A DNA stretch of 64,000 nt, from assembly GCA_965200965.1 (NCBI GenBank), contig OZ241744.1:1280001-1344000 (forward strand), written 5' to 3'. A program made the position numbers and the translations under genes. The notes beneath the pieces are model-generated. The model was not told the DNA's origin. It worked only from the letters and a program-made list of their open reading frames with translations, and made no database searches. Positions 11,405 through 49,117 of the stretch are shown piece by piece (within the stretch, counting starts at the first letter, position 1; each line of letters opens with the position of its first letter). This DNA is from an uncultured Candidatus Binatia bacterium. Its GTDB lineage: Bacteria; Desulfobacterota; Binatia; Bin18.

Positions 11405-11423
11405 CTGTGATACAGCGCTGCTG

Positions 11424-12650: not shown

Positions 12651-12660
12651 GGCCCGCCCT

Positions 12661-28415: not shown

Positions 28416-28512
28416 AAGGACTATATGTATGGGGAGATGGCGGCCAGGAAAAGGGGGGCTGAGCTTTTGGCAGCCTGAGCTGGCGGTCCATCCCCCCTCC
28501 CCGACCGGCGGC

Positions 28513-29769
28513 CTAGGGCAGATACTGGGGGGTGAAGCGGGTTGGGACGAGGCTTGAGCGGACCGTGACCAACTCCTGGTCGCCGGCCGCGTTCTCAAAC
28601 TGGAACACACCGGCGATATACTGCTGCGGGGCGCTGAGCGGAATCAGGCGTTCGATGCCGAATAAGGTGCTCGAAATGCTGAGTCTCAACTCTTGAGTTT
28701 CGCCCGGTTCAATCGGAACGTTGGGGTCAACGTTGAGAGGCCCAACAAAATCGCGCGGCCCTGCCGCGGCCTGCTCGTGTTCGCCGCCGTTGACAAAGCT
28801 GGCCATCGCCATCGTGTATTTCTTCACACTGATCGGGCTGTCGGCAACGTTGGTGACCCGGACGCCCATCTCCAGCGTCTCGGTCCCCTCGTCAAAGGTC
28901 GCCCCGGTCGCCCGTACCTCGGCCATTTTCGGTCCTGATGAGATGAAGTCTGGCGTGAACCAGTCGGTCTGCTGCGGCCATCTGACCGGATAGCTCGTCG
29001 TTGCGTAGGTCCAGCCGACCACCAGCATAATAAGCGCAACCCCGGCGATCACATTCATCCACATATGGTCACGCGGAGTAATGAGACCAAGGTCGGGTGC
29101 GTCGTCGTTGGGGGGAATCTGGAGGGTCACGGCCAAGTTTGTGACTGTCCGTTTGGTGAGGGTCCAGTACAGCATCCAGATGATGCCCAGCCCAAAGCCA
29201 AGAAACGACCACCAGACGACAAAGCTGCTGCCATAGCTGCTCAGTTCAATGGTCTCGCCGCTCAGCAGGGTGACCGGAAACTCAAGCGGCGTCGGGCTTG
29301 ACGCGACTGTGACCCATTCAGCCGGGCCGATAAGGGTGCCGGTTCCGTGGATGGCAATCCCGGGATGCACATGCCATTCGCCGGGTTCTTTGCCGATGAT
29401 GACCATGCGGAACTCGTACATGCCACCCTTTTCAACAAAAAATGAGCCGATTGAGGCCTCTCCGTTGACCGTTCGCTCCTTGAGCATGAATACCGGTCCG
29501 GGGACCACCGGAATGATAGAGGCAATCTCCGGGGTGTAGAGCGTGTGCGGCCAAGTCTCCAGGATCTTGACCTTACCGGTGATGGTGACCGGGTCGCCGA
29601 CCTGAATTTCGGTCGGCGACACCGAAACATCGAAAAACGCGGTCGTCAGGTTTTTCAAGAACGGCTCATCCGCGGCCTCGCCGTGGGCAAAAACCCGAGG
29701 AACGCCAATGACGGCAGTCCAGCCGAAAAGCATCAGGCTGAGCAAGACCCGTCCGGTCGGCTTAGTCAT
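28513..29769 (-). CDS. xmoB: Copper membrane monooxygenase subunit B (PmoB/AmoB family)
   Basis: Signal peptide then HGEAADEPFL, G.WHVHP, IGP..W.TV, two central TMs, PQQT, IEPGET. Confidence 0.92.
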   Translation of the reverse strand: MTKPTGRVLLSLMLFGWTAVIGVPRVFAHGEAADEPFLKNLTTAFFDVSVSPTEIQVGDPVTITGKVKILETWPHTLYTPEIASIIPVVPGPVFMLKERTVNGEASIGSFFVEKGGMYEFRMVIIGKEPGEWHVHPGIAIHGTGTLIGPAEWVTVASSPTPLEFPVTLLSGETIELSSYGSSFVVWWSFLGFGLGIIWMLYWTLTKRTVTNLAVTLQIPPNDDAPDLGLITPRDHMWMNVIAGVALIMLVVGWTYATTSYPVRWPQQTDWFTPDFISSGPKMAEVRATGATFDEGTETLEMGVRVTNVADSPISVKKYTMAMASFVNGGEHEQAAAGPRDFVGPLNVDPNVPIEPGETQELRLSISSTLFGIERLIPLSAPQQYIAGVFQFENAAGDQELVTVRSSLVPTRFTPQYLP

Positions 29770-30049
29770 TGACCAGCCTCCTCTCTACCACCCGCAGGCG
29801 TGGTTTCTGCTTGATCCGAATGGCGTCGTCGGCCTGTCCGGTCGGCTCAAGCACCGGGAGCTTGGAGTTTCGACCCGCCGGCCACAGCACAATGAGCCAG
29901 TAGCAGGCCAGACCGAGCAGGACCGCGGTGACAACAGGAGGGGCCATCTCGTCCAGACCCATACCGTGGGCCTGCCCGGGTGACGGCAGGGCGAGCAGGG
30001 CGGCTAGGCTGGCCGACCCGAGCTTGCTCCATTGCGTTGTGCTTGGCAT
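29762..30049 (-). CDS. Unknown small single-TM protein inside the CuMMO operon
   Basis: Starts 7 nt after the xmoA stop and overlaps the xmoB start by 8 nt. Signal peptide GQA|HG, one TM, basic tail. Confidence 0.75.
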   Translation of the reverse strand: MPSTTQWSKLGSASLAALLALPSPGQAHGMGLDEMAPPVVTAVLLGLACYWLIVLWPAGRNSKLPVLEPTGQADDAIRIKQKPRLRVVERRLVND

Positions 30050-30056
30050 GGCGATC

Positions 30057-30860
30057 TCACAAGGTTTTCAGGTAGCGTCTGATCGGCCACACCGCCAGAT
30101 AGCGGCCAATGAACTGGCCGATCCAATACCCCGCAAAGGCGACCGTGCCGCCAAAGACCAGCGAAACATACTGGGTTTCGCCCAAGAAGCTGCGCAGCGC
30201 GCCACGCTCAATCAGGCGCAGGTACTCCGGCGTCTGTGAGCGGATATAGGCGATGCCCTGGACATCGGCGACCGTCACCACATGGTCCATGAAATGGGCC
30301 GGCTGGAGAAAGGGCGACAGGGGCACATAGTTATAGGCCCACACCGCAATCGCCCAGACGTGCGCGCCAATGAGGGAGGTCAGGATAAAGCTCCTGGTTT
30401 TCATCAGGGTCCAGTCCATCAGGATGCCGGCCCCGACAATGGAGATCGGCCACACAAAGTTCATAGGATAGGTTTGGGCCATATCCCACTGAAAATAGCG
30501 CCCTACCCAGGTCGCCAGAAACATGCAGCAGGCGGTGTAGGTTGCCCCGGTGGGGAAACGCCAAGCCACCCACTGGATATATTGCAGGGCAGACGGGATG
30601 ATGATCGTGGCAAAAGCGGTGACTACCGGCCACCACTGGGGATCTTTCCAGTCGGTCCAGAAGTCCCAGTCACCGGCGAACAACTGCTTGGTGATATCCG
30701 CCGCCCCGGCAACGACAAAGATGGCCGTGACCCAGAAGATCAGGTCCCACTTCCAATCGATCCATTTATACTTTTTTTCCAGCAGGGCCTTGAGCTCGAG
30801 CCGTTTTTGGCGTTCGGCCTCGGCTGCCAAGTCTGCTACGGGAGCTGATGCGTCTGCCAT
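30057..30860 (-). CDS. xmoA: Copper membrane monooxygenase subunit A (PmoA/AmoA family)
   Basis: GDWDFWTDWKD..WW, WRFPTGAT, YPMNFVWP, TPEYLRLIERGALRSF. Confidence 0.95.
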   Translation of the reverse strand: MADASAPVADLAAEAERQKRLELKALLEKKYKWIDWKWDLIFWVTAIFVVAGAADITKQLFAGDWDFWTDWKDPQWWPVVTAFATIIIPSALQYIQWVAWRFPTGATYTACCMFLATWVGRYFQWDMAQTYPMNFVWPISIVGAGILMDWTLMKTRSFILTSLIGAHVWAIAVWAYNYVPLSPFLQPAHFMDHVVTVADVQGIAYIRSQTPEYLRLIERGALRSFLGETQYVSLVFGGTVAFAGYWIGQFIGRYLAVWPIRRYLKTL

Positions 30861-30893
30861 GCGTGCCGCCTCTCTGTGCGGGTGATGAAGCGC

Positions 30894-31733
30894 TTAGTCA
30901 GCGGCGACAGGCTGCTCAGCCGGCTGGGCCGGAGCGCCACTCTCGGCGTCTTCCTCGGCCTTCTCAATCTCGAACAGATGGACAATGGTTTCTCCCCACA
31001 CGGCGAACATCCCGCTGGCCAGCCAGCCATAAATCACAAACGGCCAGTGGAACGGCACCGAGAAAATCTCCTCGGAGATCCATAGACTGTGGCCCCATTC
31101 GTTGGCCGCCACCGCCATACATTCCAGGGCCGCGGCCGCAATCAGCAGGGCAAACGACCACGGAAACCCTTTGTCGCGGCCATAGACGCTCGGAATACGG
31201 TAGCGCCCGTACAGATAGGTTCCCACGGCCAGGACAACGGTCAGCGGGAAAAAGAAATAGAACATCGGAATGTGGGTCGGGGTCAGCGCCGTATCACGCA
31301 CCATAGTCTGATGCCACGAAGCGTCCCAGTTCGGCCAGAAGCTGGCCTCCAGATAAATGGACAGGCTGGTCACGCCGACCAAACTCCACAAAATAGCAAC
31401 TCGTCGGACCTGTTCGGACCGGGCCACCGGCTGCCCCTCTATTTCCCGACCGGTGCGGATCAACCAGCCCAACCAGAGGCCGGCAAACGCGCCGATAATG
31501 ATCAACTCCGCCCAGAACAGCGAGCGGTAGTACAGGCTGAACTCCCAACTCGCCGAGTTCAGCCCAGCCGTGAACATATACCAGTAGTTCCAGAACCACA
31601 GAAAAATGTTGGCCGCCATGACCAACCCGCAGCCCCAGAACAGCGGCTTCCAGCCAACCGACCAGTCGGTCGGATTCATTGTCGCCCTATCGCCGGTTCC
31701 AGTCGATACCGATATTGCCTGTGTTTGAGCCAT
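30894..31733 (-). CDS. xmoC: Copper membrane monooxygenase subunit C (PmoC/AmoC family)
   Basis: DASWHQTMVRDTALTPTH, NEWGH..W..EEIF..PFHW. AGGAGG RBS before ATG 31733. Confidence 0.95.
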   Translation of the reverse strand: MAQTQAISVSTGTGDRATMNPTDWSVGWKPLFWGCGLVMAANIFLWFWNYWYMFTAGLNSASWEFSLYYRSLFWAELIIIGAFAGLWLGWLIRTGREIEGQPVARSEQVRRVAILWSLVGVTSLSIYLEASFWPNWDASWHQTMVRDTALTPTHIPMFYFFFPLTVVLAVGTYLYGRYRIPSVYGRDKGFPWSFALLIAAAALECMAVAANEWGHSLWISEEIFSVPFHWPFVIYGWLASGMFAVWGETIVHLFEIEKAEEDAESGAPAQPAEQPVAAD

Positions 31734-31782
31734 AGCCTGTCCTCCTGTCCTTGCTGATATGCTACCTTGAATCTCCCGCGTT

Positions 31783-32355
31783 TCACGCCGGGGCTTCGCC
31801 ATGCTGCCGGGAAACAATCGTGTAGCGGATGGCGGAAAGCGCAACGAAGACCAGCACTCCACCCACAATCAGCCCCGGCACCATCAGGGCCTTATACCAT
31901 GCCGCGACCTGAATGGGAAAGGCCAACAGGTGTGATGCCTGGCCCTCGAGTTCAACCATCACCCGGGCAACATAGTCTGTGCCCTTGGCAAAGACTATCT
32001 CTGTATTCATCACCCCGCGTTCATAAATCCGGGGCGACAGCGACACGACGGCCTGCGACTGGCCGGCTTTATCGGTAGCGATAATTTCGAGCCCAAGGGG
32101 CACGGTCCGTAGCGGCCCCGGGGTCACATCAACAACCATGAGCGCCTTGCCCGCCCGCGGCACTTCTTCACAGTACTCGGCAACCGGGTCAAACTGGGTC
32201 TGATACAGCGTGATATGCAACAGCGACGCCCCAATCTCTCGCCGACAGGCATCGTTTGGCCCACGGTCCCGGTGCGCCTCTGTCGGCATTCCAACCAGCA
32301 GCAGGGCCGCACCAAGTGTCGCCAGCGCTGTTGTGATCCACCCAGCCTCCCTCAT
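31783..32355 (-). CDS. pmoD: PmoD/AmoD family copper protein
   Basis: Signal AEA-like (TEA|H), DAC-x9-HITLYQ, EYCEEVPRAG, LR..P, C-terminal TM. Confidence 0.82.
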   Translation of the reverse strand: MREAGWITTALATLGAALLLVGMPTEAHRDRGPNDACRREIGASLLHITLYQTQFDPVAEYCEEVPRAGKALMVVDVTPGPLRTVPLGLEIIATDKAGQSQAVVSLSPRIYERGVMNTEIVFAKGTDYVARVMVELEGQASHLLAFPIQVAAWYKALMVPGLIVGGVLVFVALSAIRYTIVSRQHGEAPA

Positions 32356-38366: not shown

Positions 38367-39518
38367 TCACAAGACCTTTTCGTATACCCGATAGGTCTTA
38401 TAGCGCTCCGCCCCCATCCGCTCCAGACCACGGATCATCGGCCAGTTATCCTCAAGAATCCATGAGCATTCCACATACGGATAGCCGTTCTTGGGGGCTT
38501 CCTGCCAGAGTTTGAGATACAGCATGGCGTCCAGTCCTCTGAGACGCACCCCTGGTTTGAGCCCTAACAGCAAGATCCGGGTCGCATTCACCGAGCGGCG
38601 ATACCACAGCAACTTCAGCCAGCCAAACGGCAACAGACGCCCGTTCGTCCGCCGTAGGACTTGATTGTAGTCCGGCAGGGCCAGGGCAAAACCGACTGGC
38701 TGACCCTCTAACTCAGCAATCAGACACAGCCGCGGGTCGGCAATCCGGCGCACCTGTTTGACAAAATGCTCAAGCTCGGCCTGGGTCACTGGGACAAAGC
38801 CCCAGTTGTGCTGCCAGGCTTGTTGATAGAGGGCAAACACTTGGGAGATCTCGGTCTCAAAACGGTGCCGGTTAAGCGGACGGATGGTCACCCGCTGCGC
38901 CCGTTGCAAGCGCTCAACCCCGCGCACCAAACGGGCGGGTGGCGTTGCATCGGCCCGGACATCGATTAGATAGGCGAGCAGATCTTTTGCCTTGCGGTAG
39001 CCGGCAACTTCAATCAACTCGGCGTAGTACGCCGGGTTGTAGGGCATCATCAGCATCGGCGGGTGTTCAAAGCCGTCAACGAGCAGCCCACACATCTCAT
39101 TGGTCGAGAAATTCATTGGACCGTGGATATGGCTCATACCCCGTTCGGCGACCCAGCCCTCCGCGGCACGCAGCAGAGCCGAAGCAACGGCCGGGTCAGC
39201 GACACTCTCGAAGAAGCCAAAAAAGCCGACCGGCCGTTTATGGAACGAGACGTATTGGTGGTTCACAATAGCCGCGATGCGGCCAACCACCTCTTTGGCC
39301 CGCAGGGCGAGAAAATACTCGACCGCAGCGTGTTGATGAAAGGGGTGCTTGGCGGGGTTCAGCAGATTCTTGAGGTCAAGCAGGAGGGGAGGAACCCAGG
39401 CCGGCTCATGGCGGTGCAGACGATCGGGAAGACTCAGAAAAGAACGGCGCGCCGAGCGTCGCCGAACTGGGATCACCCGCACCCCTTGCTGGTCCCGGTC
39501 ACCCAAGGCTCCGCCCAA
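38367..39518 (-). CDS. bcerS: GNAT-like N-acyltransferase, bacterial ceramide synthase-like
   Basis: WVPPL, GRIAAI, GFFGFFE, GPMNFS.NE.CGLLVDGF, ECSWILEDN. Directly after spt. Confidence 0.75.
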   Translation of the reverse strand: MGGALGDRDQQGVRVIPVRRRSARRSFLSLPDRLHRHEPAWVPPLLLDLKNLLNPAKHPFHQHAAVEYFLALRAKEVVGRIAAIVNHQYVSFHKRPVGFFGFFESVADPAVASALLRAAEGWVAERGMSHIHGPMNFSTNEMCGLLVDGFEHPPMLMMPYNPAYYAELIEVAGYRKAKDLLAYLIDVRADATPPARLVRGVERLQRAQRVTIRPLNRHRFETEISQVFALYQQAWQHNWGFVPVTQAELEHFVKQVRRIADPRLCLIAELEGQPVGFALALPDYNQVLRRTNGRLLPFGWLKLLWYRRSVNATRILLLGLKPGVRLRGLDAMLYLKLWQEAPKNGYPYVECSWILEDNWPMIRGLERMGAERYKTYRVYEKVL

Positions 39519-39523
39519 ACGGT

Positions 39524-40720
39524 TTAGACCGCTACCTGGCTGCGAATACCCAGATGGTGGCGGCCACGATCAAAGGCGTCAAGCACAAAATCAATCTGCT
39601 CGTCGGTATGCGTCGCCATCATCGAAATCCGCACCCGACAGGAGAGGTCGGGCACTGCTGGGGGAATGACCGGATTGGTAAAAATCCCGTCGTCATAGAG
39701 CGATTTCCACAGCAGCCAAGTCTCAATCGGCTGACCAGTGACGACAGGAATGATCGGGGTTTCGCTGACGCCGATATTATACCCCAGGCTCTTCAGCCCA
39801 TCCTGCATCCGGCAGGTGTTACGCCACAGGGCTTGCCGTCGCTCGGGCTCTGCCTTAATCACATCAAGGGCGGCCAAGACCGCCGCCACCGAAGCCGGCG
39901 GCATACTGGCACTAAAAATCAGGGAGCGGGCATGGTGCTTGAGGTAATGAATAACTGGCTCAGGTCCGGCCACTACGCCGCCGATAGACGCCAGGGATTT
40001 TGAGAATGTCGCCACAATCAGCATGGCCTGGTCTTCGAGGCAATAGTGTTCGGCAGTCCCGGCACCCCGCTCGCCTAGCACGCCAAAACCGTGGGCGTCG
40101 TCAAGCAGAATGTCGGCTTCGTAGCGCTCGGACAGGCGGACCAACTCTGGCAGGTCCACAACATCACCGTCCATGGAAAAGATCCCGTCGGTGACAATGA
40201 GCTTTCCGGCCTCCCTCGTGCTGCGGGCCAGCTGTTGTTCGAGAATGATCAGATCGTCGTGCGGGTAGCGGTGGACCGTACCGTAGGCCAAGCGGGCACT
40301 ATCAACCAGACTGGCGTGGTTGAGCTTGTCGAGATACAGATAATCTCCCCGTCCGATCAGACCAGCCACCACGCCCAAATTTGTCTGATAGCCGGTGCTG
40401 AACACCAGCGCCGCTTCTTTGTTGAGAAATCGGGCTAAGCGGTCTTCCAGTTCTTCGTGCAGGTCAAGCGTGCCATTCAGAAAACGGCTCCCAGTACAGC
40501 CGCTCCCGTAGCGCTGCAAGGTGTCGGCCGCAGCTTCAATGACCTTGGGGTGGTGGGTCAGGCCCAAGTAATTATTGGACCCCATCATGATCTTGGGCTC
40601 GCCATTCACCGTCACCTCTGTCCCGTCAGAGGCTTCAATGGGCAGAAAAAAGGGATAATATCCCCCGGCCTGTGCTTCCCGAGCCCGCGTAAAGCGAGCG
40701 CATTTGTCCAGCAGTTTCAT
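39524..40720 (-). CDS. spt: Serine palmitoyltransferase (AOS family)
   Basis: GSNNYLGL, GSRFLNGTL, DDAHG, TFSKS, FSAS.PP. Ceramide-gene context. Confidence 0.85.
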   Translation of the reverse strand: MKLLDKCARFTRAREAQAGGYYPFFLPIEASDGTEVTVNGEPKIMMGSNNYLGLTHHPKVIEAAADTLQRYGSGCTGSRFLNGTLDLHEELEDRLARFLNKEAALVFSTGYQTNLGVVAGLIGRGDYLYLDKLNHASLVDSARLAYGTVHRYPHDDLIILEQQLARSTREAGKLIVTDGIFSMDGDVVDLPELVRLSERYEADILLDDAHGFGVLGERGAGTAEHYCLEDQAMLIVATFSKSLASIGGVVAGPEPVIHYLKHHARSLIFSASMPPASVAAVLAALDVIKAEPERRQALWRNTCRMQDGLKSLGYNIGVSETPIIPVVTGQPIETWLLWKSLYDDGIFTNPVIPPAVPDLSCRVRISMMATHTDEQIDFVLDAFDRGRHHLGIRSQVAV

Positions 40721-40818
40721 CTAGCCCCCCCCCTTCTCCCTCCTGGTGATATGCTCAGAATTCCCAACGGGGAGCCGTATCGGACAACTCCACCCCTTCC
40801 CTCGGTTCATATGTACTC

Positions 40819-41832
40819 CTACAGCCAGCCTTGTTCTCGATACCACGCGGCCGTGCGTGTCAAGCCTTCGGGCAGGGGTATACGCGCTTCAAAGCACAAG
40901 TCCTGTCGGGCGGCTGCGGTTTCACACAACCAGCCAGAGGCCAGCAACTCCTGAACTTTGTCTCGATTAAAGATCGTTGTCCGCCCCATCATTGCCGCGC
41001 CCCACTCACTGCAACGAGCAGCCAGCCGCACCACCCAGTGGGGCACACCCACCGTGCGGACCCGCCGCCCGAGTGCCTGGGCGATCCCAGTCGCCAACTC
41101 TGCCCGGCTGTAGGACCGCGCTTCGGCAATATGATAGATACCCGCCACCTTGGCGAGGGTAGCGGCTCGAATCAAAGCGTCCACCAAATCATGGACATGG
41201 GTGAACTGGAAAAGCCCCCCGGACCCTCTGGGCATGGGAAAGATCCCCCGCATAGCCAGTTGAAACAGCAGGAAAAAGTCCCGGTCGCGTGGTCCGTACA
41301 CCACCGGCGGGCGCAGGATCACGACCTCGGACTCATCCATTAGCGCACGGCATGCCAACTCTCCGGCTAATTTGCTGCGTCCATAGGCCGTCAGTGGCCG
41401 GGGGTCAGCGTCCACACTAACCGGCTGGTCGTCTCGGGCCGGGCCAACCGCAGCCAGGGAACTGAGATAGACGAGCCGACATGGACATGACGGAGCGGCC
41501 CGAATAGCCTCCACCAGCGCCCTCGTCCCCTGCCCATTGACCCGCTCATAGACGGCTGCGGCGCGTGCTTTGGTAGCCGCGGCGATGTGAAAGATCACAT
41601 CAACACCGGCAACAGCCCGAGCCAGGACTGCCGCATCCCTCATATCGCCCTGAATACACTCCACGCCGCGCACCCTCAGCCGCGCCACATCGTCCGTCTT
41701 ACGGACCAGGGCTCGCAGGTGGAACGGCTGTGGGGTGAGTGTATCAAGCAAGTGGGAACCAACAAAGCCCGTCCCCCCCGTAATCAAGACCCGGCTGCCC
41801 GGGGCCATAACTGTCCGCTGTGTTTGCCCCAC
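40819..41832 (-). CDS. NAD-dependent epimerase/dehydratase, ceramide reductase CerR-like
   Basis: TGGTGFVG, SSLAA, YGRSK, RPPVVYGPRD. Upstream of spt. Confidence 0.75.
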   Translation of the reverse strand: MGQTQRTVMAPGSRVLITGGTGFVGSHLLDTLTPQPFHLRALVRKTDDVARLRVRGVECIQGDMRDAAVLARAVAGVDVIFHIAAATKARAAAVYERVNGQGTRALVEAIRAAPSCPCRLVYLSSLAAVGPARDDQPVSVDADPRPLTAYGRSKLAGELACRALMDESEVVILRPPVVYGPRDRDFFLLFQLAMRGIFPMPRGSGGLFQFTHVHDLVDALIRAATLAKVAGIYHIAEARSYSRAELATGIAQALGRRVRTVGVPHWVVRLAARCSEWGAAMMGRTTIFNRDKVQELLASGWLCETAAARQDLCFEARIPLPEGLTRTAAWYREQGWL

Positions 41833-42045
41833 CCATGTGTCCAGAAATTCAACGCGGTCGTTCCCATATACCAGATTCAGAGACGTTTACCAAGCAGTAT
41901 TGGCCCACGCTCAAAAATCCCACCGCCTTCCGATTTACCCGAGCCGTCCACCTCGCCCGACTCTTGACACTCTGACCGAGCCCCATTTAGTCTTCCCCCA
42001 GCGGTTGATATCCGAATCAACTCCAAAACCAGGACACCTAGCCGC

Positions 42046-43185
42046 ATGTCTGAACTCGCTCCTGTCAGCCTACCAGCGGTCACAGCCGTTCCGCTTAGTG
42101 CGGCCGACTATCGGCGTCGGTTTGCCAGTGCTTTTCAGCCCCAGCCGTGGAAGTATTGGAGCGACATGCTGGCCTCCGCCGGCCTGGGTTGGGGATTTTT
42201 TGGCTTGAGTCTGTATGCACCGCTCGGTTCTGTGGCCTATCTGGGGTGTAGCGGTGTCGCTATCCTGGCCCTGCTGCGGGCCGTGCTGTTTATTCACGAA
42301 CTCGCCCACCTCAAACGTCGCGCCGTGCCCGGTTTTGAAACCGCTTGGCTCATCCTGGTCGGCCTTCCGCTCATGGTACCCAGCGTCATGTATGATCCGC
42401 ACGGCGATCACCATCGCCAGGCAACTTTTGGCACCCCGGATGACCCCGAATACCTGCCGCTGGCCCACGCCCATCCGCTCGGACTTGTCTGGTTTGTTGT
42501 GCAGGTCAGCATTGTTCCGGTCTTGCTGGCCATGCGCTGGGGTCTTATTGGCCCGCTCGCGGCGTGTCTGCCGTGGCTGCGTCGTTGTGTCATCCGCCAT
42601 GCCTCAAGCCTCGTCATCAACCCCCACTATCGTCGGCCGCTGCCCTCAAAACAGCAGCGAACCCGCTTCGCCACCCAAGAAGCCGGAGCGGGCATCGTAT
42701 TCTGGAGTGTTGCGCTTGGCTGCTATCTGGGCTGGATTCCGCCCGCCTGGCTACTCCAGTGGTCCCTGACCGGAGCCGGCATCCTGGCCGTCAATCAAGT
42801 CCGAACCCTGGCCGCCCATCGCTACGTCAGCCAAGGTCGGGCCGTCACTACGGTTGACCAGGTCCTGGACTCGATCACGCTCCGGAGTTACTCGCTCAAT
42901 GCTGATCTCTGCTTGAAGAGGAGGTCAGCATTGTTCACCGTGCTGACCGCTGCGGCCGCTCCGGTCGGGCTCCGCTACCATGCTCTGCACCACTTTCTGC
43001 CCACCGTTCCCTACCACAGCTTGGGCGTCCTGCACCGCCGACTTGAGGTCGAACTAGGCCAGGACTCGCCGTACCGGCAGACCTACCAGAGCGGCATTGT
43101 GTCGGCTATCTCTGCCCTCGTCCGGCGCGGCTCACCGGAGATGACGCCGGACCAGCAGGGTGAGAATCGCCAAGCCGCCCAATAA
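42046..43185 (+). CDS. Membrane fatty-acid desaturase family protein
   Basis: His boxes HELAH, HGDHH and HALHH plus TM segments. Confidence 0.9.
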   Translation: MSELAPVSLPAVTAVPLSAADYRRRFASAFQPQPWKYWSDMLASAGLGWGFFGLSLYAPLGSVAYLGCSGVAILALLRAVLFIHELAHLKRRAVPGFETAWLILVGLPLMVPSVMYDPHGDHHRQATFGTPDDPEYLPLAHAHPLGLVWFVVQVSIVPVLLAMRWGLIGPLAACLPWLRRCVIRHASSLVINPHYRRPLPSKQQRTRFATQEAGAGIVFWSVALGCYLGWIPPAWLLQWSLTGAGILAVNQVRTLAAHRYVSQGRAVTTVDQVLDSITLRSYSLNADLCLKRRSALFTVLTAAAAPVGLRYHALHHFLPTVPYHSLGVLHRRLEVELGQDSPYRQTYQSGIVSAISALVRRGSPEMTPDQQGENRQAAQ

Positions 43186-44079
43186 AAAAGGATGGCGACG
43201 CTGGCGCGCGGTCGGCCGCCAAGCAAGCCCGGCATGGCGGCCGACCTTCCACGCCACATAGGGCAACCAGTCATCAAATGTCAGCCCGGATTTGAGCAAC
43301 CACAGTGCGTAGCGGCCTCTGGCCAAGACCCGTCGGGCCTTCCAGTCCCAGCGCATCCAGCAACGGTGTCGGGGCGAGAGCGTCACCTGCCAAGCAGCAG
43401 CCCGGCCCGATTCAGAAACGGCCAGTTCCCCGCGACGCTCCAACTCGGACAAGGCGTGCCCGGCAACCCAGCCGTAGCGCTCAGCCGCCGCGCTGTAGAG
43501 GGCCTGGATCGTAGCAGGTTGCTCGGCGCGTAACTCCGCCCTGTAGGTCTCTCGAAAACCACATTGCCACAGCTCAGCGGCCTCAAACCGGGCCGGCAAC
43601 AGGGCCGTCATCCGCCCAACCAGGGTCAGGCTGGCCTCAACACAGGCGCTGACAACGCAGTCACGGCAGGCTTCATCACGGCTATAGACCAGCCGCGTCG
43701 GCTGACAGAAGCGTCCCCAGATGCTCGCGTGCAGGCTGCGGGGAGAGACGCCAGCCACAAAATCGCGCATCGAAATCACCGCGTACTTGGCCCGCACCGT
43801 GTGCGGCCTACCCCCGACCTCCAGATACAAGACATTTGGCGGCAGAACGGCATTCACGACGGCCAGCATCCGTGAGGCAAAGACGGCCGGGTAGCTATCG
43901 ACCAAGACGTAGAAATCCAACACGCCCTGGCTCGTGTGGTGGCGGAGACACGAGCCGTAGAAGAGGACGGCGGCAACGGCCGAGCCGTGACGGCGGCGGA
44001 TCTCGTCGGTAGCGGCCCGTGCCGCCTCGGAGGTGGGCAGGCCGAGTTCCTGGTCCACAATTTCGTATAAGGCGCTCAT
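43132..44079 (-). CDS. Nucleotidyltransferase-fold protein (Tam41-like / CpgC-like)
   Basis: LFYGSC...LDFYVLVDSY, LPPNV, AKYAV, TY.AELR.E. Confidence 0.7.
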   Translation of the reverse strand: MSALYEIVDQELGLPTSEAARAATDEIRRRHGSAVAAVLFYGSCLRHHTSQGVLDFYVLVDSYPAVFASRMLAVVNAVLPPNVLYLEVGGRPHTVRAKYAVISMRDFVAGVSPRSLHASIWGRFCQPTRLVYSRDEACRDCVVSACVEASLTLVGRMTALLPARFEAAELWQCGFRETYRAELRAEQPATIQALYSAAAERYGWVAGHALSELERRGELAVSESGRAAAWQVTLSPRHRCWMRWDWKARRVLARGRYALWLLKSGLTFDDWLPYVAWKVGRHAGLAWRPTARQRRHPFLLGGLAILTLLVRRHLR

Positions 44080-44100
44080 CGGGCGTGCGCTTGCGTTGTG

Positions 44101-45054
44101 TCAGGTCTGGATAAATCGGAGGCGTCGGTCGGCTTCAACACGAACTAGGCGGCCCTCTTTGGGCCCAAACAACTCTCCATCAATGACGATCCCACAGTCA
44201 AGCCGTATCTGGAGTTGATGCACATTGTGACTCACATAGCCGGCGAGCGACCCGTCAGGCCGGGGCGGGCGGCCCTGGACAATGCGGAGTGGGGCGAGCA
44301 GCCGCCGAGGTGCCCCTTCCGCAACCGCGGTGCAGTGAATAGGGGCCTCTTCTCGCCCCCAGAACGGCCGCAGTGCCATGAGTGAGTTCAGGGTCGTGGC
44401 AAAAGCGAACAAAAACGGGCCTGAGCCGAGCGGCCGAGCGTCAAGCCGGATGTCCAGGTGGTCGCGGCTCAGGACACCGCGGGAGGAGCCCAGCAGCGCC
44501 CGCAGCGCGACTAGTCCTATGATCGCTCCAGACGTCAGCGGCCCCTGAAAATAGCGGTTGGGCAGAAGGCGGTGTTTGAGTTCCGTGGTTCGATAGATCA
44601 CCCCCGCCCCAAAGAAGAAACCGTACTGCACAGCCTCGTCCGGCCCCAGCTCAACGCGCAAGACCGGGCGTTCCACCACGCTCTGGCCAAGGCTGGCCTG
44701 CCGGACGACTTTCAGCAGGCGAGACAGGGCGGAGAGCGGGTTTGGATGGCTGCCGATATCAAGCGCCCCGGCGTTGGTTCGTCCACCTTTCAACGGAGCA
44801 ATCAGGGGCAGACGGGCAAACATCGGGGCGCTCAACAGCGCAGTCAGCACACGCTGCAGGGTGCCGTCCCCGCCACACACGACCAACACCCCAATACCGT
44901 GGCCAGCCAAGCGCGCGACCGCCTCTTCAACCCTCAACTGCGGACCTGTCTCAACATGCACGACATCGGCCTGCCGCTCACACAGCGCCCGCAGCCGAGC
45001 CATGCGACCAGGATTTCTGCCAGCCTGGGTATTGCTCAAAACGCCGATACGCAT
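44101..45054 (-). CDS. DAGK-family lipid kinase (ceramide kinase CpgB-like)
   Basis: N..AGRN, GGDGT, GGRTN, DGE. Confidence 0.8.
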   Translation of the reverse strand: MRIGVLSNTQAGRNPGRMARLRALCERQADVVHVETGPQLRVEEAVARLAGHGIGVLVVCGGDGTLQRVLTALLSAPMFARLPLIAPLKGGRTNAGALDIGSHPNPLSALSRLLKVVRQASLGQSVVERPVLRVELGPDEAVQYGFFFGAGVIYRTTELKHRLLPNRYFQGPLTSGAIIGLVALRALLGSSRGVLSRDHLDIRLDARPLGSGPFLFAFATTLNSLMALRPFWGREEAPIHCTAVAEGAPRRLLAPLRIVQGRPPRPDGSLAGYVSHNVHQLQIRLDCGIVIDGELFGPKEGRLVRVEADRRLRFIQT

Positions 45055-45081
45055 GAAGCCTGCCGTGCGGTGGGCGAAGGC

Positions 45082-46335
45082 TCACCCGACAGTTTCCGAT
45101 TCTTGCCAAGTCTGAATCGGCTGGCCGCGCCAGACCTGGCCACACGCCTGGAGCAAACGCACGCTATGAAACGCGATTGAACACAGCGTCCAAACCGCCA
45201 CCAAAACCAAGCCCCAATCCGGTCGGCCGCCCAGCATCGCCACGGACAGCAAGATGAGATTCGGGTTGCGCCGAGCTGTGATCGTCCGGAAAAATGAATC
45301 AATAGGCCGCCAGCTGTGGATTTCCATCTTGAAGACCAGGAGAAAAACGCCCTCCAGCAGACGCCCCAGCACATAGCCAAGCAGGGTAATCATGAGCGCC
45401 GGTCCCAGCCAGACCGCGCCACTGGGCAGCCCCAGCGCCCACGCCAGATACCAAAAAGGCGGGTGGACCAGATCAAGACCGTGGTCAAGCACATGGCCAA
45501 TTTTGCTCGAGGTGAGGCTGACCCGCGCCAGCTTGCCGTCAACGGTATCCAGAAAGGTCATCAGCCAAGCCGCCAGCAGTCCGAAGCCAAAAGAGCCGGC
45601 AGCAAACAGCCAAGTGCTCAGAACGACCAGCAGCCAACTCAGGCCGGTCACCGCATTCGGTCGCACGCCAGCCCGGGCCAAGACACGGACAAGGGCCTGG
45701 GCCGGGCGGGGCCAGACCCATGTGGTGACCACATCGGTGATGCCTTTGTATGAGGCCCGGAAAAGACACGCTTCGAGTTCGTCAATTCGCCGTGGCTGAA
45801 TGGGAAGGATGTAAGGAGCAGCGGATTTTCGGAGGGCGGGATTGTAGACCGGCACCAAGTCGCTCGGCGTAAGACTGTGTAGACCGTGGGAGCCGACCGT
45901 TTGCAAGGCTTCGGCCCCGGATAAGAGGGCCAGGGCTGTGCTCCAGTTTTGTGCATTGACCCGGGCCGCAACAGCGAGCGGCTGGTCAGCCGAGGCGAGC
46001 AGGACGCTGTTAGGGGTGGTGGGCGAGTCAAGCAGGGTGTGGATCAGACGTTCATCAAACACATAATCGGCGCGCACGAGAAGAACCTCCCGGCCCTGCG
46101 CTCGGAATGCGGCTCGGGGGCCGATGCCGATCCGGTCGGCCGCTATTCCAGCCGCTTCCAACGCCCGACGCAGGCGCTCCGCGCCGGAAAGTCCCCAGAT
46201 TTTGAGTTCGGGCTGGTCTGGATCGGTAAGTATCCAGACGGCGGTTTGCGGCCCACTCGTCACTTTGCCCATATCTGTATCCCAAGCGGTCTTATCATAG
46301 CCGGCAGATGTGGTATAGGCAGACCGATGCGGCAT
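45082..46335 (-). CDS. CDP-alcohol phosphatidyltransferase (CpgA-like)
   Basis: YKGITDVVT, PNAVT, DTVDGKLAR.....S..G..LDHGLD, TARRNPN. Confidence 0.85.
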   Translation of the reverse strand: MPHRSAYTTSAGYDKTAWDTDMGKVTSGPQTAVWILTDPDQPELKIWGLSGAERLRRALEAAGIAADRIGIGPRAAFRAQGREVLLVRADYVFDERLIHTLLDSPTTPNSVLLASADQPLAVAARVNAQNWSTALALLSGAEALQTVGSHGLHSLTPSDLVPVYNPALRKSAAPYILPIQPRRIDELEACLFRASYKGITDVVTTWVWPRPAQALVRVLARAGVRPNAVTGLSWLLVVLSTWLFAAGSFGFGLLAAWLMTFLDTVDGKLARVSLTSSKIGHVLDHGLDLVHPPFWYLAWALGLPSGAVWLGPALMITLLGYVLGRLLEGVFLLVFKMEIHSWRPIDSFFRTITARRNPNLILLSVAMLGGRPDWGLVLVAVWTLCSIAFHSVRLLQACGQVWRGQPIQTWQESETVG

Positions 46336-46407
46336 GGGTCACAGCGGCGACTATGGCGCGATTTTCACAACCGCCAACAGAGAGACCCCCACCGTCTGGA
46401 GGAACAG

Positions 46408-46921
46408 ATGACCGGACAAGAACTGAGAGACCTGCAGGCGTCCCTCAAGCAGCAGTATGCAGACCGGCCCGAATCCGCCCGTGTCACCCTCAAAGCCCAG
46501 GCTCGACTAGGCCAGGGCGTCACCTGCACGCTTGAAACCGGCCAAGCTTTGGTTGAGGCCAAGCTGCATCCGGCAACGGGCGGTGACGGTCTGTCGGCCT
46601 GCTCGGGAGATATGTTGCTGGAAGCGCTGGCCGCCTGTGCCGGGGTCACGCTTGGGGCGGTGGCCATGTCCATCGGGGTGAGCCTGCGCGACGCAACGAT
46701 CCCGGCCAAAGGAGACCTGGACTTTCACGGCACCCTGGGCGGTGGCCAAGGACGCTCTGGTCGGTTTTACCAGCATTCGGCTCAGCTTCGTTATTGATTC
46801 TGAGGCCGAGCCAGAGCAACTGGCGACCCTCCTCAAACTGACCGAGCGTTACTGCATCGTGTACCAAACCTTGTCCGGCAGCCCCGACTTGTCTGTGTCA
46901 AGCACGCTTCAGGAGAGCTGA
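46408..46921 (+). pseudogene. OsmC family protein with a +1 frameshift near 46741
   Basis: ACSGDMLLEALAAC...GDLDFHGTLG continues in the +1 frame as VAKDALVGFTSIRL...LTERYCIVYQTL...*. Confidence 0.85.
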
Positions 46922-47004
46922 GCCGCGCCGGCGGCTGACGATCGCTCCAAAGCCGACGTATTGCCGACCCAGACAGGCTCAGCACCTCCACAACGGTCGT
47001 CAGC

Positions 47005-47979
47005 ATGGCGTTTACTCTGGCCCATCTCTCAGACCTGCACGTCACCCAAACCCGTTTCCACTCCCTCCCGCCGCGGCTGAACAAACAGACGATCGGCTGG
47101 CTCAAATGGCTTGTGCGACGCCGCTCCGAATATCGTCCCGATATCTTAGAAGCGCTCATCGCCGACCTGCACAGCCAACGGCCGGATCATACGGTGATAA
47201 CCGGAGACCTGACCAACCTCGGCCTTGAGACCGAGTTGCGCTCAGCCTTGAGCTGGCTCGAGCGACTGGGCGAGCCCCAGCACGTCACCCTCATTCCGGG
47301 CAATCACGATACCTACACGCCAGCCTCAGTCTCCAACCTCCAGACGCATTGGCAGGCCTACCTACGCTCAGATACCCCACCGGCCAAGTCCACATTTCCG
47401 GATGGGTTTCCGATCCTGCGTGTGCGCGGACCGGTCGCCCTCCTCGGACTATCGAGCGTTGGTCCGACCGGGCTGTTGTCCGCCACCGGCCGGGTTGGAC
47501 CGTCCCAGCAGGCCCGTCTCGGCCGCCTCCTCCAACACCTCAAACACCGAGACATCTGCCGGGTCGTCCTGATACATCATCCGCCTACCCGGGCCGGTTT
47601 GTCGCCGCGGCGGCGTTTACACGATGCCCGGACCCTCCGCCGGCTGCTGGCCGAGTCAGGGGTTGATCTGGTGCTACACGGCCATACCCATACCACCACC
47701 CTGACCCATATTGCGGCCCCGTACCGGGCGGCGATTCCGGTTGTCGGGGTTCGCTCAGCCTCAGCCCTGGGTCACAAGCTCAAACGCAGCGCTCAGTACC
47801 ATGTGTATACCCTGACACCCGGCCAGACCGAGTGCCCCGCGGCCCGCTTTCAGATCAACCTCAGCATCCGTGCTTACGACCCTGACTCCGGGCACTTTCA
47901 CCAGCGTGGCCCCTATCCACTCGCCCCGTTTGAAAAAAAGAGTCTGCCGGCTGATGTATTTTCGGTCATTTCAGCGTAA
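47005..47979 (+). CDS. Calcineurin-like metallophosphoesterase
   Basis: SDLH, TGDL, PGNHD, HHPP, HGHTH. Confidence 0.92.
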   Translation: MAFTLAHLSDLHVTQTRFHSLPPRLNKQTIGWLKWLVRRRSEYRPDILEALIADLHSQRPDHTVITGDLTNLGLETELRSALSWLERLGEPQHVTLIPGNHDTYTPASVSNLQTHWQAYLRSDTPPAKSTFPDGFPILRVRGPVALLGLSSVGPTGLLSATGRVGPSQQARLGRLLQHLKHRDICRVVLIHHPPTRAGLSPRRRLHDARTLRRLLAESGVDLVLHGHTHTTTLTHIAAPYRAAIPVVGVRSASALGHKLKRSAQYHVYTLTPGQTECPAARFQINLSIRAYDPDSGHFHQRGPYPLAPFEKKSLPADVFSVISA

Positions 47980-48016: not shown

Positions 48017-49117
48017 ATGATGCCGATCGCGCAACGGCTCCGTTGGCCAGTGTCTCTCCCGTTCCTTGCGGCCCTCCTGATCGCACCTGCCCCAAGCCTG
48101 GGCACTGACGATCCGATTCACCAAGCCCTGTCAGCCGTCGTCCATATTCGCGCGCAGATTCCCCCGAGCGCTCGAACCGCCCGTTTTCTAGGAACCCAGC
48201 GCGAAGCGAGCGGCATTGTCATTGACGCCGAGGGCTTGGTCCTGACCGTTGGCTACATCCTGCTTGAAGCCGAACAGGTTGCCGTCACCAGCCTGAACGG
48301 CCGACCGGTCAGGGCCACTGTTATCGGCAATGATTATGACACCGGCTTTGGCCTGGTGCGGGCCTCGCACCCCCTCCCCGTCCCGCCGATTCCGCTCGGC
48401 CTGTCGGCCGAGTTGGCCGAGCGAGCCGAGGTCCTGGTGGCCAGCTATGGCGCGGCGGAAGCCGTTCTCCCGGCACTGGTAACTGCGCGGCAGGAGTTTA
48501 CCGGCTATTGGGAATACCTGTTGGAAGACGCGATTTTTACCTCCCCCCCGCACCCCAATTTTGCCGGAGCGGCGCTGATCGGGCCAAGTGGGCATCTGCT
48601 CGGTATCGGCTCGCTCTTTGTCGGCAACGCATTTCAAGGCGGACCGGGCGAGCGGCGGCTGCCCGGCAATATGTTCATTCCGATCGACCGGCTGAAGCCG
48701 ATTTTGCCTGACCTGCTGGCCACCGGCCGGACGTCAAAGCCGCCCCGTCCCTGGCTGGGGCTGTTTACCGAAGAGGTCGGCGGCCATTTATTCATCTCCG
48801 GCACGATTCCCGAGGGACCCTCAGCCCAAGCCGGCCTGAGGGCGGGTGATATTATTGTCGGAGTCGGGGACAAGACGGTCAGCGACCAAGCCGAGTTCTA
48901 CCGCGCAGTCTGGGCCCGAGGAGAAGCTGGAGTAGAGGTCCCGCTCCAGATTTTGCGCCAGTCGGCAATTCAGACCCTGTCGGTGCGGTCGCTGGACCGC
49001 GATCGCTATTTTCAGCACAACCAGGACCGCCACGGTCCCGGCCCGGACACCGCCCAATCCGCAAAAGTCCAAGCCGGGCCCTGGCCGGAGTTGCTCCTCA
49101 GACCCTGGAGCGGCTAG
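48017..49117 (+). CDS. S1C/HtrA-like PDZ protein with non-canonical catalytic residues
   Basis: SGIVID, LTVGY, PNFAGAAL, C-terminal PDZ. The His and Ser of the triad appear replaced. Confidence 0.8.
   Translation: MMPIAQRLRWPVSLPFLAALLIAPAPSLGTDDPIHQALSAVVHIRAQIPPSARTARFLGTQREASGIVIDAEGLVLTVGYILLEAEQVAVTSLNGRPVRATVIGNDYDTGFGLVRASHPLPVPPIPLGLSAELAERAEVLVASYGAAEAVLPALVTARQEFTGYWEYLLEDAIFTSPPHPNFAGAALIGPSGHLLGIGSLFVGNAFQGGPGERRLPGNMFIPIDRLKPILPDLLATGRTSKPPRPWLGLFTEEVGGHLFISGTIPEGPSAQAGLRAGDIIVGVGDKTVSDQAEFYRAVWARGEAGVEVPLQILRQSAIQTLSVRSLDRDRYFQHNQDRHGPGPDTAQSAKVQAGPWPELLLRPWSG

What the first reader, a model, noticed from the sequence alone, without database searches (positions are those of the whole stretch)
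38367..47979. Ceramide / anionic sphingolipid biosynthesis cluster outside the well-studied lineages
Seen: cpgA-like, cpgB-like and cpgC-like genes form one operon, and cerR-like, spt and bcerS-like form another. A desaturase and a metallophosphoesterase are adjacent. Known: Caulobacter makes ceramide with Spt, bCerS and CerR, and ceramide-phosphoglycerate with CpgA (CDP-alcohol transferase), CpgB (ceramide kinase) and CpgC. Inference: this organism makes phosphosphingolipids. The dedicated ACP, acyl-ACP synthetase, CpgD and LptFG paralogues are not in this window, so the headgroup may differ.
Basis: partly seen in the sequence, partly recalled or inferred. Interest (0 to 1): 0.72.

Follow-up and report, generated by a model that had tools for sequence, protein, structure and literature searches.

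The report
Binatia phosphosphingolipid pathway, split in two
These genes are half of a gene set that likely lets an uncultured Binatia bacterium make Caulobacter-type acidic sphingolipids; the other half lies 345 kb away and adds enzymes predicted to decorate and export the lipid further.

Summary
Observation confirmed. All eight genes are present. Seven are the best hits of genes in loci with the published Caulobacter order; the desaturase has one unlinked counterpart there. The AOS enzyme groups with Spt, not BioF. The organism is most likely Ca. Binatia.

CpgD, with every glycerate-contact residue kept, a CC_1153-like transferase and a second LptF/G lie at a second locus 345 kb away. That locus is contiguous with this one in seven relatives. 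The core headgroup is therefore likely ceramide (di)phosphoglycerate. Only AcpR, AasR and LptC2 were not found; the Spt is closest to the Bacteroidota type.

Differences from Caulobacter: a fused LptF-G that likely arose separately, an MsbA-like exporter, a divergent second CDP-alcohol transferase, GT8-like/ELM1 and GT4 transferases, and an altered GpmA paralogue. That paralogue sits within 9.4 kb of cpgD in 48 of 48 cpgD-bearing Nitrosomonadaceae genomes.

No lipid was measured. This scan already reported the same cluster in another Binatia genome and the mutase link in Nitrosomonas. Verdict: new variant of a known system, moderate interest.

The parts
38367..39518 (-). bCerS-like GNAT N-acyltransferase (ceramide synthase)
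   Evidence: PF00583; best hit of the bCerS-position gene in 3 of 3 Caulobacter-order loci, 38-41%; no paralogue in the genome
39524..40720 (-). Serine palmitoyltransferase, closest to the Bacteroidota-type model
   Evidence: NCBIfam SerpalmtaseCFB 516 bits (cut-off 640 not reached) against BioF 398; best PDB match SPT 3a2b, E 3.5e-125; in the Spt clade, SH-aLRT 99; the genome's BioF is a separate gene in a bio operon
40819..41832 (-). CerR-like NAD(P)H reductase
   Evidence: PF01370; best hit both ways with the CerR-position gene of G113, G123 and G143; its best hit is the spt-adjacent gene in 5 of 5 genomes
42046..43185 (+). DesA-type desaturase/hydroxylase, likely the CC_0202 counterpart (N-acyl hydroxylation)
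   Evidence: PF00487, three His boxes; single homologue in 3 of 5 genomes: unlinked in G113 and G123, next to cpgD in Nitrosomonas G044; identity with CC_0202 rests on a recalled OmpA neighbour
43132..44079 (-). CpgC-like protein, Tam41/Mmp37 (CDP-DAG synthase) fold
   Evidence: best hit of the CpgC-position gene, 32-34%; family profile hits Tam41, E 2e-4; 21 of 60 members hit PF09139; model pLDDT 92.9, Foldseek to Tam41 E 2.6e-9
44101..45054 (-). CpgB-like ceramide kinase
   Evidence: PF00781, GGDG motif at residue 61; best hit of the CpgB-position gene, about 30%; single copy in the genome
45082..46272 (-). CpgA orthologue (CDP-alcohol phosphotransferase); likely start 46272 (396 aa), longest ORF starts at 46335
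   Evidence: PF01066; 45% to the CpgA-position gene against 32-34% for the second paralogue; its family orthologues nest in the CpgA clade
47005..47979 (+). Metallophosphoesterase, CC_1158 counterpart
   Evidence: PF00149; best hit both ways with the gene at the CC_1158 position in G113, G123 and G143, best hit in the locus of G043, none in Nitrosomonas G044

Best explanation
This is the synthesis half of a Caulobacter-type ceramide-phosphoglycerate gene set in a likely Ca. Binatia bacterium, whose other half lies 345 kb away; together they likely make ceramide, add a phosphoglycerate headgroup, decorate it further and export it to the outer membrane beside LPS. Steps, all inferred from orthology and none measured here: (1) Spt joins serine to an acyl donor, likely acyl-CoA, since no AcpR or AasR was found; bCerS N-acylates, CerR reduces, and the desaturase likely hydroxylates the N-acyl chain. 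(2) CpgB makes ceramide-1-phosphate. (3) CpgC, a Tam41-fold enzyme, is predicted to activate it with CTP (CDP-ceramide) on the way to CPG. (4) CpgD makes CDP-2-D-glycerate and CpgA transfers it to give CPG2, helped by the CC_1153-like and CC_1158-like proteins. (5) The second CDP-alcohol transferase, the GT8-like/ELM1 and GT4 transferases, a kinase-like protein and a 2OG oxygenase likely add optional decorations. (6) An MsbA-like ABC transporter likely flips the lipid and a single-chain LptF-G likely extracts it with the shared LptB. The altered GpmA likely serves phosphoglycerate handling for this pathway.
For: Ten proteins of three loci with the published Caulobacter gene order find their best hit in these two loci: seven in the window, two in the second locus, and CpgA's second hit there as well (nine genes as best hits). 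Reverse best hits were shown for CerR and the phosphoesterase and for CpgD in 4 of 5 other genomes. Spt clade. CpgC has the Tam41 fold. CpgD keeps G12, R16, K26, N90, T93, N110, D112, M147, K161, S170 and W201, while the genome's next paralogue, in a phosphonate cluster, lacks N90, T93, N110, M147, K161 and W201. Both halves are on one contig in G011, G012, G014, G015, G016, G020 and G024. The ABC transporter co-occurs with CpgC: 22 both, 14 neither, 5 discordant of 41; among the 15 genomes outside the order it is in exactly the 4 with CpgC. A Pseudomonas plasmid carries ABC and GT-A/ELM1 inside a self-contained sphingolipid cluster. LPS genes, with their own msbA and lptFG, are elsewhere.
Against: No lipid, enzyme or expression data. 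The Caulobacter comparison uses unnamed Caulobacterales stand-ins, not C. crescentus itself. Spt is below every NCBIfam SPT cut-off, and the tree had no Bacteroidota Spt and no labelled Kbl. CpgB is only about 30% identical, and Caulobacter CpgB also phosphorylates DAG in vitro (PMC10331486). CpgC's chemistry is unknown even in Caulobacter (PMC12275187). Caulobacter-type LptF2/G2 hit the housekeeping pair better than the fusion, so the fusion's cargo rests on position alone. LptC2 and CC_1167 were not found.
Confidence: 0.8

Rival explanations
1. The window makes ceramide and CPG/CPG2, but the extra genes of the second locus (MsbA-like ABC, GT8-like/ELM1, GT4, kinase-like protein, fused LptF-G) modify and export an LPS or other glycolipid and only sit nearby.
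For: An ELM1 protein is needed for LOS core synthesis in Acinetobacter (PMC10936431, passages). The fused LptG half groups with Binatia housekeeping LptG. G015 has a second fused LptF-G + ABC + GT4 copy with no cpg genes in 18 kb (L292). GT-A is in only 13 of the 24 genomes with CpgC.
Against: The LPS operon has its own msbA, waaA and lpxK. ABC presence tracks CpgC. The same ABC and GT-A/ELM1 genes sit inside a plasmid-borne Pseudomonas sphingolipid cluster and beside cpg genes in Pelobacter-, alpha- and gammaproteobacterial loci.
Confidence: 0.12
2. The headgroup is not glycerate-based: CpgD and CpgA act on another phospho-alcohol (glycerol, inositol, choline), giving a different anionic sphingolipid.
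For: AcpR and AasR were not found and there is a second, very divergent CDP-alcohol transferase. COG1213 cytidylyltransferases are promiscuous (PMC12275187).
Against: All five residues named as glycerate contacts are kept in Binatia CpgD. It is 44-48% identical to CpgD-position proteins. A phosphoglycerate-mutase paralogue is in the same locus.
Confidence: 0.06
3. The AOS enzyme is BioF or Kbl and the neighbours serve glycerolipid metabolism; no sphingolipid is made.
For: It does not reach the curated SPT cut-offs; BioF scores 398 and Kbl 351 bits. No Kbl row was labelled in the tree.
Against: It groups with locus-linked Spt proteins, apart from BioF and HemA. The genome has a separate BioF in a bioF-A-D-B operon. 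It sits between cerR and bCerS orthologues.
Confidence: 0.02

Closest known systems
Caulobacter crescentus sphingolipid/CPG2 locus CC_1168-CC_1152 (Spt, bCerS, CerR, CpgA-D, CC_1153, CC_1158, LptF2G2C2); PMC11324152, PMC9393093, PMC12275187, PMC13228409, bioRxiv 10.64898/2026.04.12.717747
   Same: Counterparts of spt, cerR, bCerS, cpgA, cpgB, cpgC, cpgD, CC_1153 and CC_1158; cpgA-cpgB-cpgC co-oriented; a second LptF/G beside the genes; LPS also encoded; a likely CC_0202-type hydroxylase.
   Different: No AcpR, AasR, LptC2 or CC_1167 found. Spt is closer to the Bacteroidota model. LptF-G is one 808-aa chain whose G half is not sister to Caulobacter-type LptG2 (p-AU 0.006). There is an MsbA-like ABC where Caulobacter has the CC_1166 flippase. 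Extra genes: second CDP-alcohol transferase, GT8-like/ELM1, GT4, kinase-like protein, 2OG oxygenase, altered GpmA.
Bacteroidota-type serine palmitoyltransferase (PDB 3a2b/8guh; NCBIfam NF047600)
   Same: Best solved-structure and profile match (421 bits against 288 for the next); no dedicated ACP, consistent with acyl-CoA use described for Bacteroidetes Spt in PMC11324152.
   Different: Below the NF047600 cut-off (516 of 640); clustered with bCerS, cerR and cpg genes, whereas Bacteroidota genes are described as unlinked (PMC11334938).
Nitrosomonas/Azotobacter/Pseudomonas luteola predicted CPG2 clusters (PMC11324152 Fig. 7)
   Same: Predicted CPG/CPG2 synthesis; Nitrosomonadaceae carry the same cpgD-desaturase-altered gpmA block.
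   Different: Those carry AcpR and AasR and proteobacterial-type Spt (paper); the Nitrosomonas genome tested has no CC_1158 homologue and a single LptFG pair.
Tam41/Mmp37 CDP-DAG synthase (PDB 6ig2, 7ecd)
   Same: Fold of the CpgC-like protein and the YGS...D nucleotidyltransferase motif.
   Different: 13-14% identity, TM about 0.5; lipid substrate presumed to be ceramide-1-phosphate, untested.

Membership tests
Bacterial ceramide synthesis (Spt/bCerS/CerR) | AOS enzyme falls in the Spt clade, not BioF/Kbl/HemA | tested here: met
   Quick tree of 52 rows, 38-row Spt side with SH-aLRT 99; labels; no labelled Kbl and no Bacteroidota row in the tree
Bacterial ceramide synthesis (Spt/bCerS/CerR) | Reaches a curated SPT equivalog cut-off | tested here: not met
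   NF047600 516/640, NF047599 383/500, NF047603 305/670; no NF047600 pass in any of 41 Binatia-class genomes, so these models do not cover the lineage
Bacterial ceramide synthesis (Spt/bCerS/CerR) | bCerS and CerR orthologues present and linked to spt | tested here: met
   adjacent in the window
Rhodobacteria-type (AcpR/AasR-dependent) ceramide pathway | Dedicated AcpR and AasR | tested here: not met
   tblastn of stand-in AcpR finds only the housekeeping ACP (E 2e-4); AasR finds only generic ligases at 24-32%
Caulobacter CPG/CPG2 pathway | CpgB, CpgC, CpgA, CpgD, CC_1153 and CC_1158 counterparts | tested here: met
   forward best hits from 3 of 3 Caulobacter-order loci; reverse best hits tested only for CC_1158 and CpgD (other genomes)
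Caulobacter CPG/CPG2 pathway | CpgD residues that bind CTP and 2-phospho-D-glycerate | tested here: met
   numbering taken from stand-in L112, which matches all 12 residue numbers named in PMC13228409 and PMC12275187
Caulobacter CPG/CPG2 pathway | CPG/CPG2 lipids present in the cell | not testable with these tools
   needs lipidomics
Caulobacter LptF2/G2/C2 sphingolipid transporter | Second LptF/G pair in the sphingolipid locus | tested here: met
   fused, next to cpgD
Caulobacter LptF2/G2/C2 sphingolipid transporter | Orthology with LptF2/LptG2 | tested here: not met
   G half groups with Binatia housekeeping LptG (SH-aLRT 89 and 99); one clade with Caulobacter-type LptG2 rejected, p-AU 0.006, 21 rows, quick tree, group chosen; F half unresolved
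Caulobacter LptF2/G2/C2 sphingolipid transporter | LptC2 | tested here: not met
   one clear LptC plus a weak match in an 863-aa frame; stand-in LptC2 finds nothing
Cofactor-dependent phosphoglycerate mutase (GpmA) | Phosphohistidine core (RHG, Arg62, ERHY, His-Gly-Asn) | tested here: met
   TIGR01258 293 bits, NF010713 305.2/305; alignment to 1e58
Cofactor-dependent phosphoglycerate mutase (GpmA) | Lys99 and Arg115-Arg116 (1e58 numbering; their substrate-binding role is recalled) | tested here: not met
   Lys kept in 0 of 13 and Arg-Arg in 1 of 13 cluster-clade rows, against 16 of 16 housekeeping rows

The most novel reading that the evidence does not exclude
Binatia build a larger anionic sphingolipid than CPG2: a second, lineage-specific CDP-alcohol transferase and GT8-like/ELM1/GT4 transferases extend ceramide-phosphoglycerate into an LPS-like glyco-phosphosphingolipid. 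It is flipped by its own MsbA paralogue and exported by a single-chain LptF-G recruited separately from Caulobacter's. The altered GpmA, inherited with cpgD in Binatia and Nitrosomonadaceae, is the dedicated phosphoglycerate enzyme that the CpgD paper asked for, either a 2-phosphoglycerate supplier or a phosphatase on a lipid-linked intermediate.
Probability: 0.35. Interest if true: 0.62.

Novelty: new variant of a known kind. Interest (0 to 1): 0.4.

Why it matters
It extends the ceramide-phosphoglycerate pathway, worked out only in Caulobacter and predicted in Proteobacteria, to an uncultured lineage found in sponge metagenomes, and pairs it with a Bacteroidota-type Spt that needs no dedicated ACP. 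Two open points become testable. PMC12275187 asks whether a dedicated enzyme supplies phosphoglycerate for CPG2; the altered GpmA is a candidate. It also leaves CpgC's mechanism open; the Tam41 fold predicts a CDP-ceramide intermediate, though the Tam41 likeness itself is already in print (PMC11324152 S1 Text). A natural single-chain LptF-G and signs of repeated Lpt recruitment bear on how sphingolipids reach the outer membrane. The core is known, and this scan has reported the cluster before in another Binatia genome, so surprise is moderate.

Tried and rejected
Idea that this organism lacks LPS and replaces it with sphingolipid: rejected. LpxC is in 39 of 41 genomes including this one, and lpxB-msbA-waaA-lpxK-like genes are present.
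Idea that the second CDP-alcohol transferase is the essential partner of CpgC: weakened. Of 17 loci from a neighbouring genus that span its position, 10 are intact, 6 hold only remnants and 1 is in two frames, while cpgA, B and C stay intact; these loci are kin and several may share one deletion.
Idea that the cluster GpmA is an ordinary mutase supplying 2-phosphoglycerate: lowered after the residue check.
Idea that the fused LptF-G is the LptF2G2 orthologue: rejected for the G half.
Single-sequence fold of CpgC failed (pLDDT 42.5); redone with 60 sequences.
No PDB match for the kinase-like ORF or a clear one for the GT-A domain (E 0.48); Atlas leads only: APH-like and GT8 in 27-37% of cluster members.
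The promoter scan was at chance level (2 found, 2.8 expected).
No RNA holder listed.
The careful Spt tree did not finish; all trees are quick trees without bootstrap.
C. crescentus itself could not be fetched; stand-ins were used.
The Stankeviciute 2022 paper was not held.
Full report
OBSERVATION. cpgA-cpgB-cpgC are 27 and 21 nt apart, cerR-spt-bCerS 98 and 5 nt; the desaturase overlaps cpgC tail to tail by 54 nt. G+C is ordinary for the window. The window lies in a one-contig 3.62-Mb genome, 99.3% complete, 5.7% contaminated. The closest CpgC-like loci in named records (64-86% identity) are titled Ca. Binatia or Binatota, so the organism is most likely Ca. Binatia. Twelve runs hold half or more of the sampled words; four are labelled sponge metagenome, all from the one study that may be the source, so habitat support is thin.

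ORTHOLOGY. C. crescentus could not be fetched. I drew 151 genomes of the order of a Hellea genome (41 had CpgC) and fetched 15 loci. Several show the order published for CC_1164-CC_1152. Three of them (L112, L113, L115) were searched against all ORFs of this genome. CerR, Spt, CpgC, CpgB, CpgA, the CC_1158-position phosphoesterase and bCerS hit the window's genes best (31-33, 40-41, 32-34, 30-32, 45-46, 39-43 and 38-41%). The CC_1153-position and CpgD-position proteins hit a second locus best. Reverse searches gave the locus gene as best hit for CerR in 5 of 5 genomes and for the phosphoesterase in 4 of 5, with none in Nitrosomonas G044, as PMC11324152 reports for N. eutropha. Reverse hits were not run for CpgA, CpgB, CpgC or bCerS; CpgB, CpgC and bCerS have no paralogue in this genome.

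SPT. NCBIfam ranks the Bacteroidota SPT model first (516 bits, cut-off 640), ahead of BioF (398) and Kbl (351). The best solved match is SPT 3a2b (E 3.5e-125). In a quick tree of 52 AOS proteins it lies on the 38-row Spt side (SH-aLRT 99), apart from BioF and HemA; the careful search did not finish, and no Bacteroidota Spt or labelled Kbl was included. The genome's BioF is another gene, in a bioF-A-D-B operon. AcpR was not found: stand-ins hit only the housekeeping ACP. AasR hit only generic ligases. PMC11324152 states that Bacteroidetes Spt uses acyl-CoA, so acyl-CoA use is the likely reading here.

THE SECOND LOCUS. A family search found four LptF/G matches: a housekeeping pair at 3.43 Mb and one 808-aa LptF-LptG fusion at 971-973 kb. 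Around it (G000:C1:960578-973426, L036) lie a MobA-like transferase (CC_1153-like), a second CDP-alcohol transferase, an MsbA-like ABC transporter, a GT-A/ELM1 fusion, a GpmA paralogue, a 2OG oxygenase, a kinase-like ORF, a GT4 and a CpgD-like cytidylyltransferase. The two loci are on one contig stretch in seven genomes of five other genera (G011, G012, G014, G015, G016, G020, G024), so the split is likely a rearrangement in this genus. Using stand-in L112, whose numbering fits every residue named for C. crescentus CpgD, the Binatia protein keeps G12, R16, K26, N90, T93, N110, D112, M147, K161, S170 and W201. The next paralogue, in an aminoethylphosphonate cluster, lacks six of these.

CPGC. 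A 60-sequence profile hits Tam41 (E 2e-4), 21 of 60 members hit PF09139 at E up to 1, and the model (pLDDT 92.9) matches Tam41 structures best (E 2.6e-9, TM about 0.5). The Tam41 likeness of CC_1161 is in PMC11324152 S1 Text. A CDP-ceramide intermediate is my inference; the term found 0 papers.

WHAT DIFFERS. (a) The fused LptF-G matched in 23 of 41 genomes, all in this order, and 0 of 15 outside it at E 1e-60; 22 of the 23 have an open frame of at least 734 aa. Its G half groups with Binatia housekeeping LptG, and a clade with Caulobacter-type LptG2 is rejected (p-AU 0.006); the F half is unresolved. In G036 the locus-linked pair groups with that genome's own other pair, which suggests repeated recruitment. 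Its cargo is inferred from position only. (b) The second CDP-alcohol transferase matched at 53% or more in 17 of 41 genomes, all in this order, and forms a distant clade. That tree left out 22 near-duplicate loci and did not contain the window's own CpgA, only its family orthologues. The gene is decayed in 7 of 17 loci from a neighbouring genus, so it is accessory. (c) The ABC transporter tracks CpgC (22 both, 14 neither, 2 CpgC only, 3 ABC only; only 33 candidates were scored per genome; kin are not independent). Two of the three ABC-only genomes carry it beside the desaturase or spt. The GT-A domain is in 14 of 41 genomes, 13 with CpgC. A Pseudomonas plasmid carries both inside a sphingolipid cluster. 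Against this, ELM1 works on LOS in Acinetobacter, and G015 has an extra LptF-G/ABC/GT4 copy without cpg genes nearby. (d) GpmA: this genome also has GpmI and ApgM, so the cluster copy is extra. In 61 Nitrosomonadaceae genomes, 51 have a second, weaker-scoring dPGM and 48 have CpgD; in 48 of 48 they are on one contig within 9.4 kb (median 2.4 kb); 3 have the mutase without a CpgD match and 10 have neither. Thirteen cluster copies from Binatia and Nitrosomonadaceae form one side of a branch (SH-aLRT 95); the cluster-adjacent copy of G043 falls outside it. A local duplication in Nitrosomonadaceae is rejected (p-AU 8e-11; only 2 cluster rows from that family). The catalytic core is intact, but Lys99 is kept in 0 of 13 and Arg115-Arg116 in 1 of 13, against 16 of 16 housekeeping rows (their role is recalled). 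It may be an altered mutase or a phosphatase.

DESATURASE. It has one homologue in 3 of 5 genomes tested: unlinked and next to an OmpA-like gene in G113, and between cpgD and gpmA in Nitrosomonas G044. PMC11324152 describes CC_0202 as an unlinked DesA-family ceramide hydroxylase. That CC_0201 is OmpA-like is recalled, so the identity is likely, not shown.

LPS. LpxC is in 39 of 41 genomes, and lpxB, msbA and waaA/lpxK-like genes form an operon at 1.99 Mb (the last two by sequence look). The sphingolipid would sit beside LPS, as in Caulobacter.

LITERATURE SEEN. PMC11324152: parts 1-4 of 9, S1 Text whole, passages of S2 Table; one supplement unreadable. PMC12275187: parts 1-2 of 4. PMC13228409: parts 1-2 of 5. 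bioRxiv 10.64898/2026.04.12.717747: parts 1-2 of 4, supplements closed. PMC9393093, PMC10331486, PMC11334938 and PMC10936431: passages (20, 47, 46 and 130, 112). Searches with 0 papers: Binatia + sphingolipid, Binatota + sphingolipid, CDP-ceramide, phosphoglycerate mutase + ceramide + Caulobacter + Nitrosomonas. Stankeviciute et al. 2022 was not held. Its species tables and the supplements of PMC11334938, which I did not search, may already list Binatia genomes under other names.

EARLIER SCAN NOTES. The same cluster and second locus were reported in another Binatia genome (e1-774516, e1-774513), and the altered mutase in Nitrosomonas (e1-5269756) and elsewhere (e1-9768411). These are not independent support; the tests above are my own.

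VERDICT. A real, conserved CPG/CPG2-type pathway, complete at genome level, with a variant acyl-donor step, variant transport and extra tailoring genes. New variant of a known kind; interest 0.4.

Noticed in passing
window 28513-31868 (-), with 26715-28610 (-): Three membrane-protein genes that look like a pmoC-A-B/amoCAB-type copper monooxygenase operon, followed by a multicopper-oxidase-like gene (judged by eye, no family scan; such operons are recalled as described in Binatota).
   Followed up: no
window 10604-13650 (-): HpnA-, HpnB- and phosphorylase-like genes, likely hopanoid-associated (by eye).
   Followed up: no
window 46409-46920 (+): OsmC-like gene between cpgA and the phosphoesterase, lying in two reading frames; pseudogene or assembly error.
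   Followed up: partly
window 48017-49117 (+): An HtrA-like protease/PDZ gene follows the phosphoesterase here and in most Binatia loci; no role in the pathway is known.
   Followed up: no
L226 (G000:C1:3050000-3066000): Aminoethylphosphonate-type cluster (decarboxylase-like pair, AEP aminotransferase, cytidylyltransferase) beside MMPL, ArnT-like and HpnI/J/K-like genes; could modify a lipid with phosphonate.
   Followed up: partly
G044 (L149, L153): This Nitrosomonas genome has only one LptF/G pair, next to a CC_1153-like gene, so one pair may serve both LPS and sphingolipid.
   Followed up: no
L286 (NZ_CP073662.1, Pseudomonas sp. JS425 plasmid pPNP1): A whole CPG-type cluster with AcpR, AasR, LptF/G, ABC and GT-A/ELM1 on a plasmid, near an intI1/sul1 region; bCerS is interrupted by an IS5 element. 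A second Pseudomonas plasmid has the same GT match.
   Followed up: partly
L046 (CAXQPB010000161.1): A contig titled Nitrosopumilus carries this bacterial cluster and its Spt groups with Binatia-class proteins; likely misbinned.
   Followed up: partly
L107, L139, L140, L141, L046: In other genomes the GT-A/ELM1 protein has a methyltransferase-like middle domain (by eye) that is missing in this genus.
   Followed up: no
G030:C1:776079-778295 (L168, L173): A second, separate LptF-G fusion (753-aa frame) that groups with housekeeping Lpt proteins.
   Followed up: partly
L292 (G015:C16:40000-58000): Extra fused LptF-G + MsbA-like ABC + two GT4 with no cpg genes detected in 18 kb.
   Followed up: no
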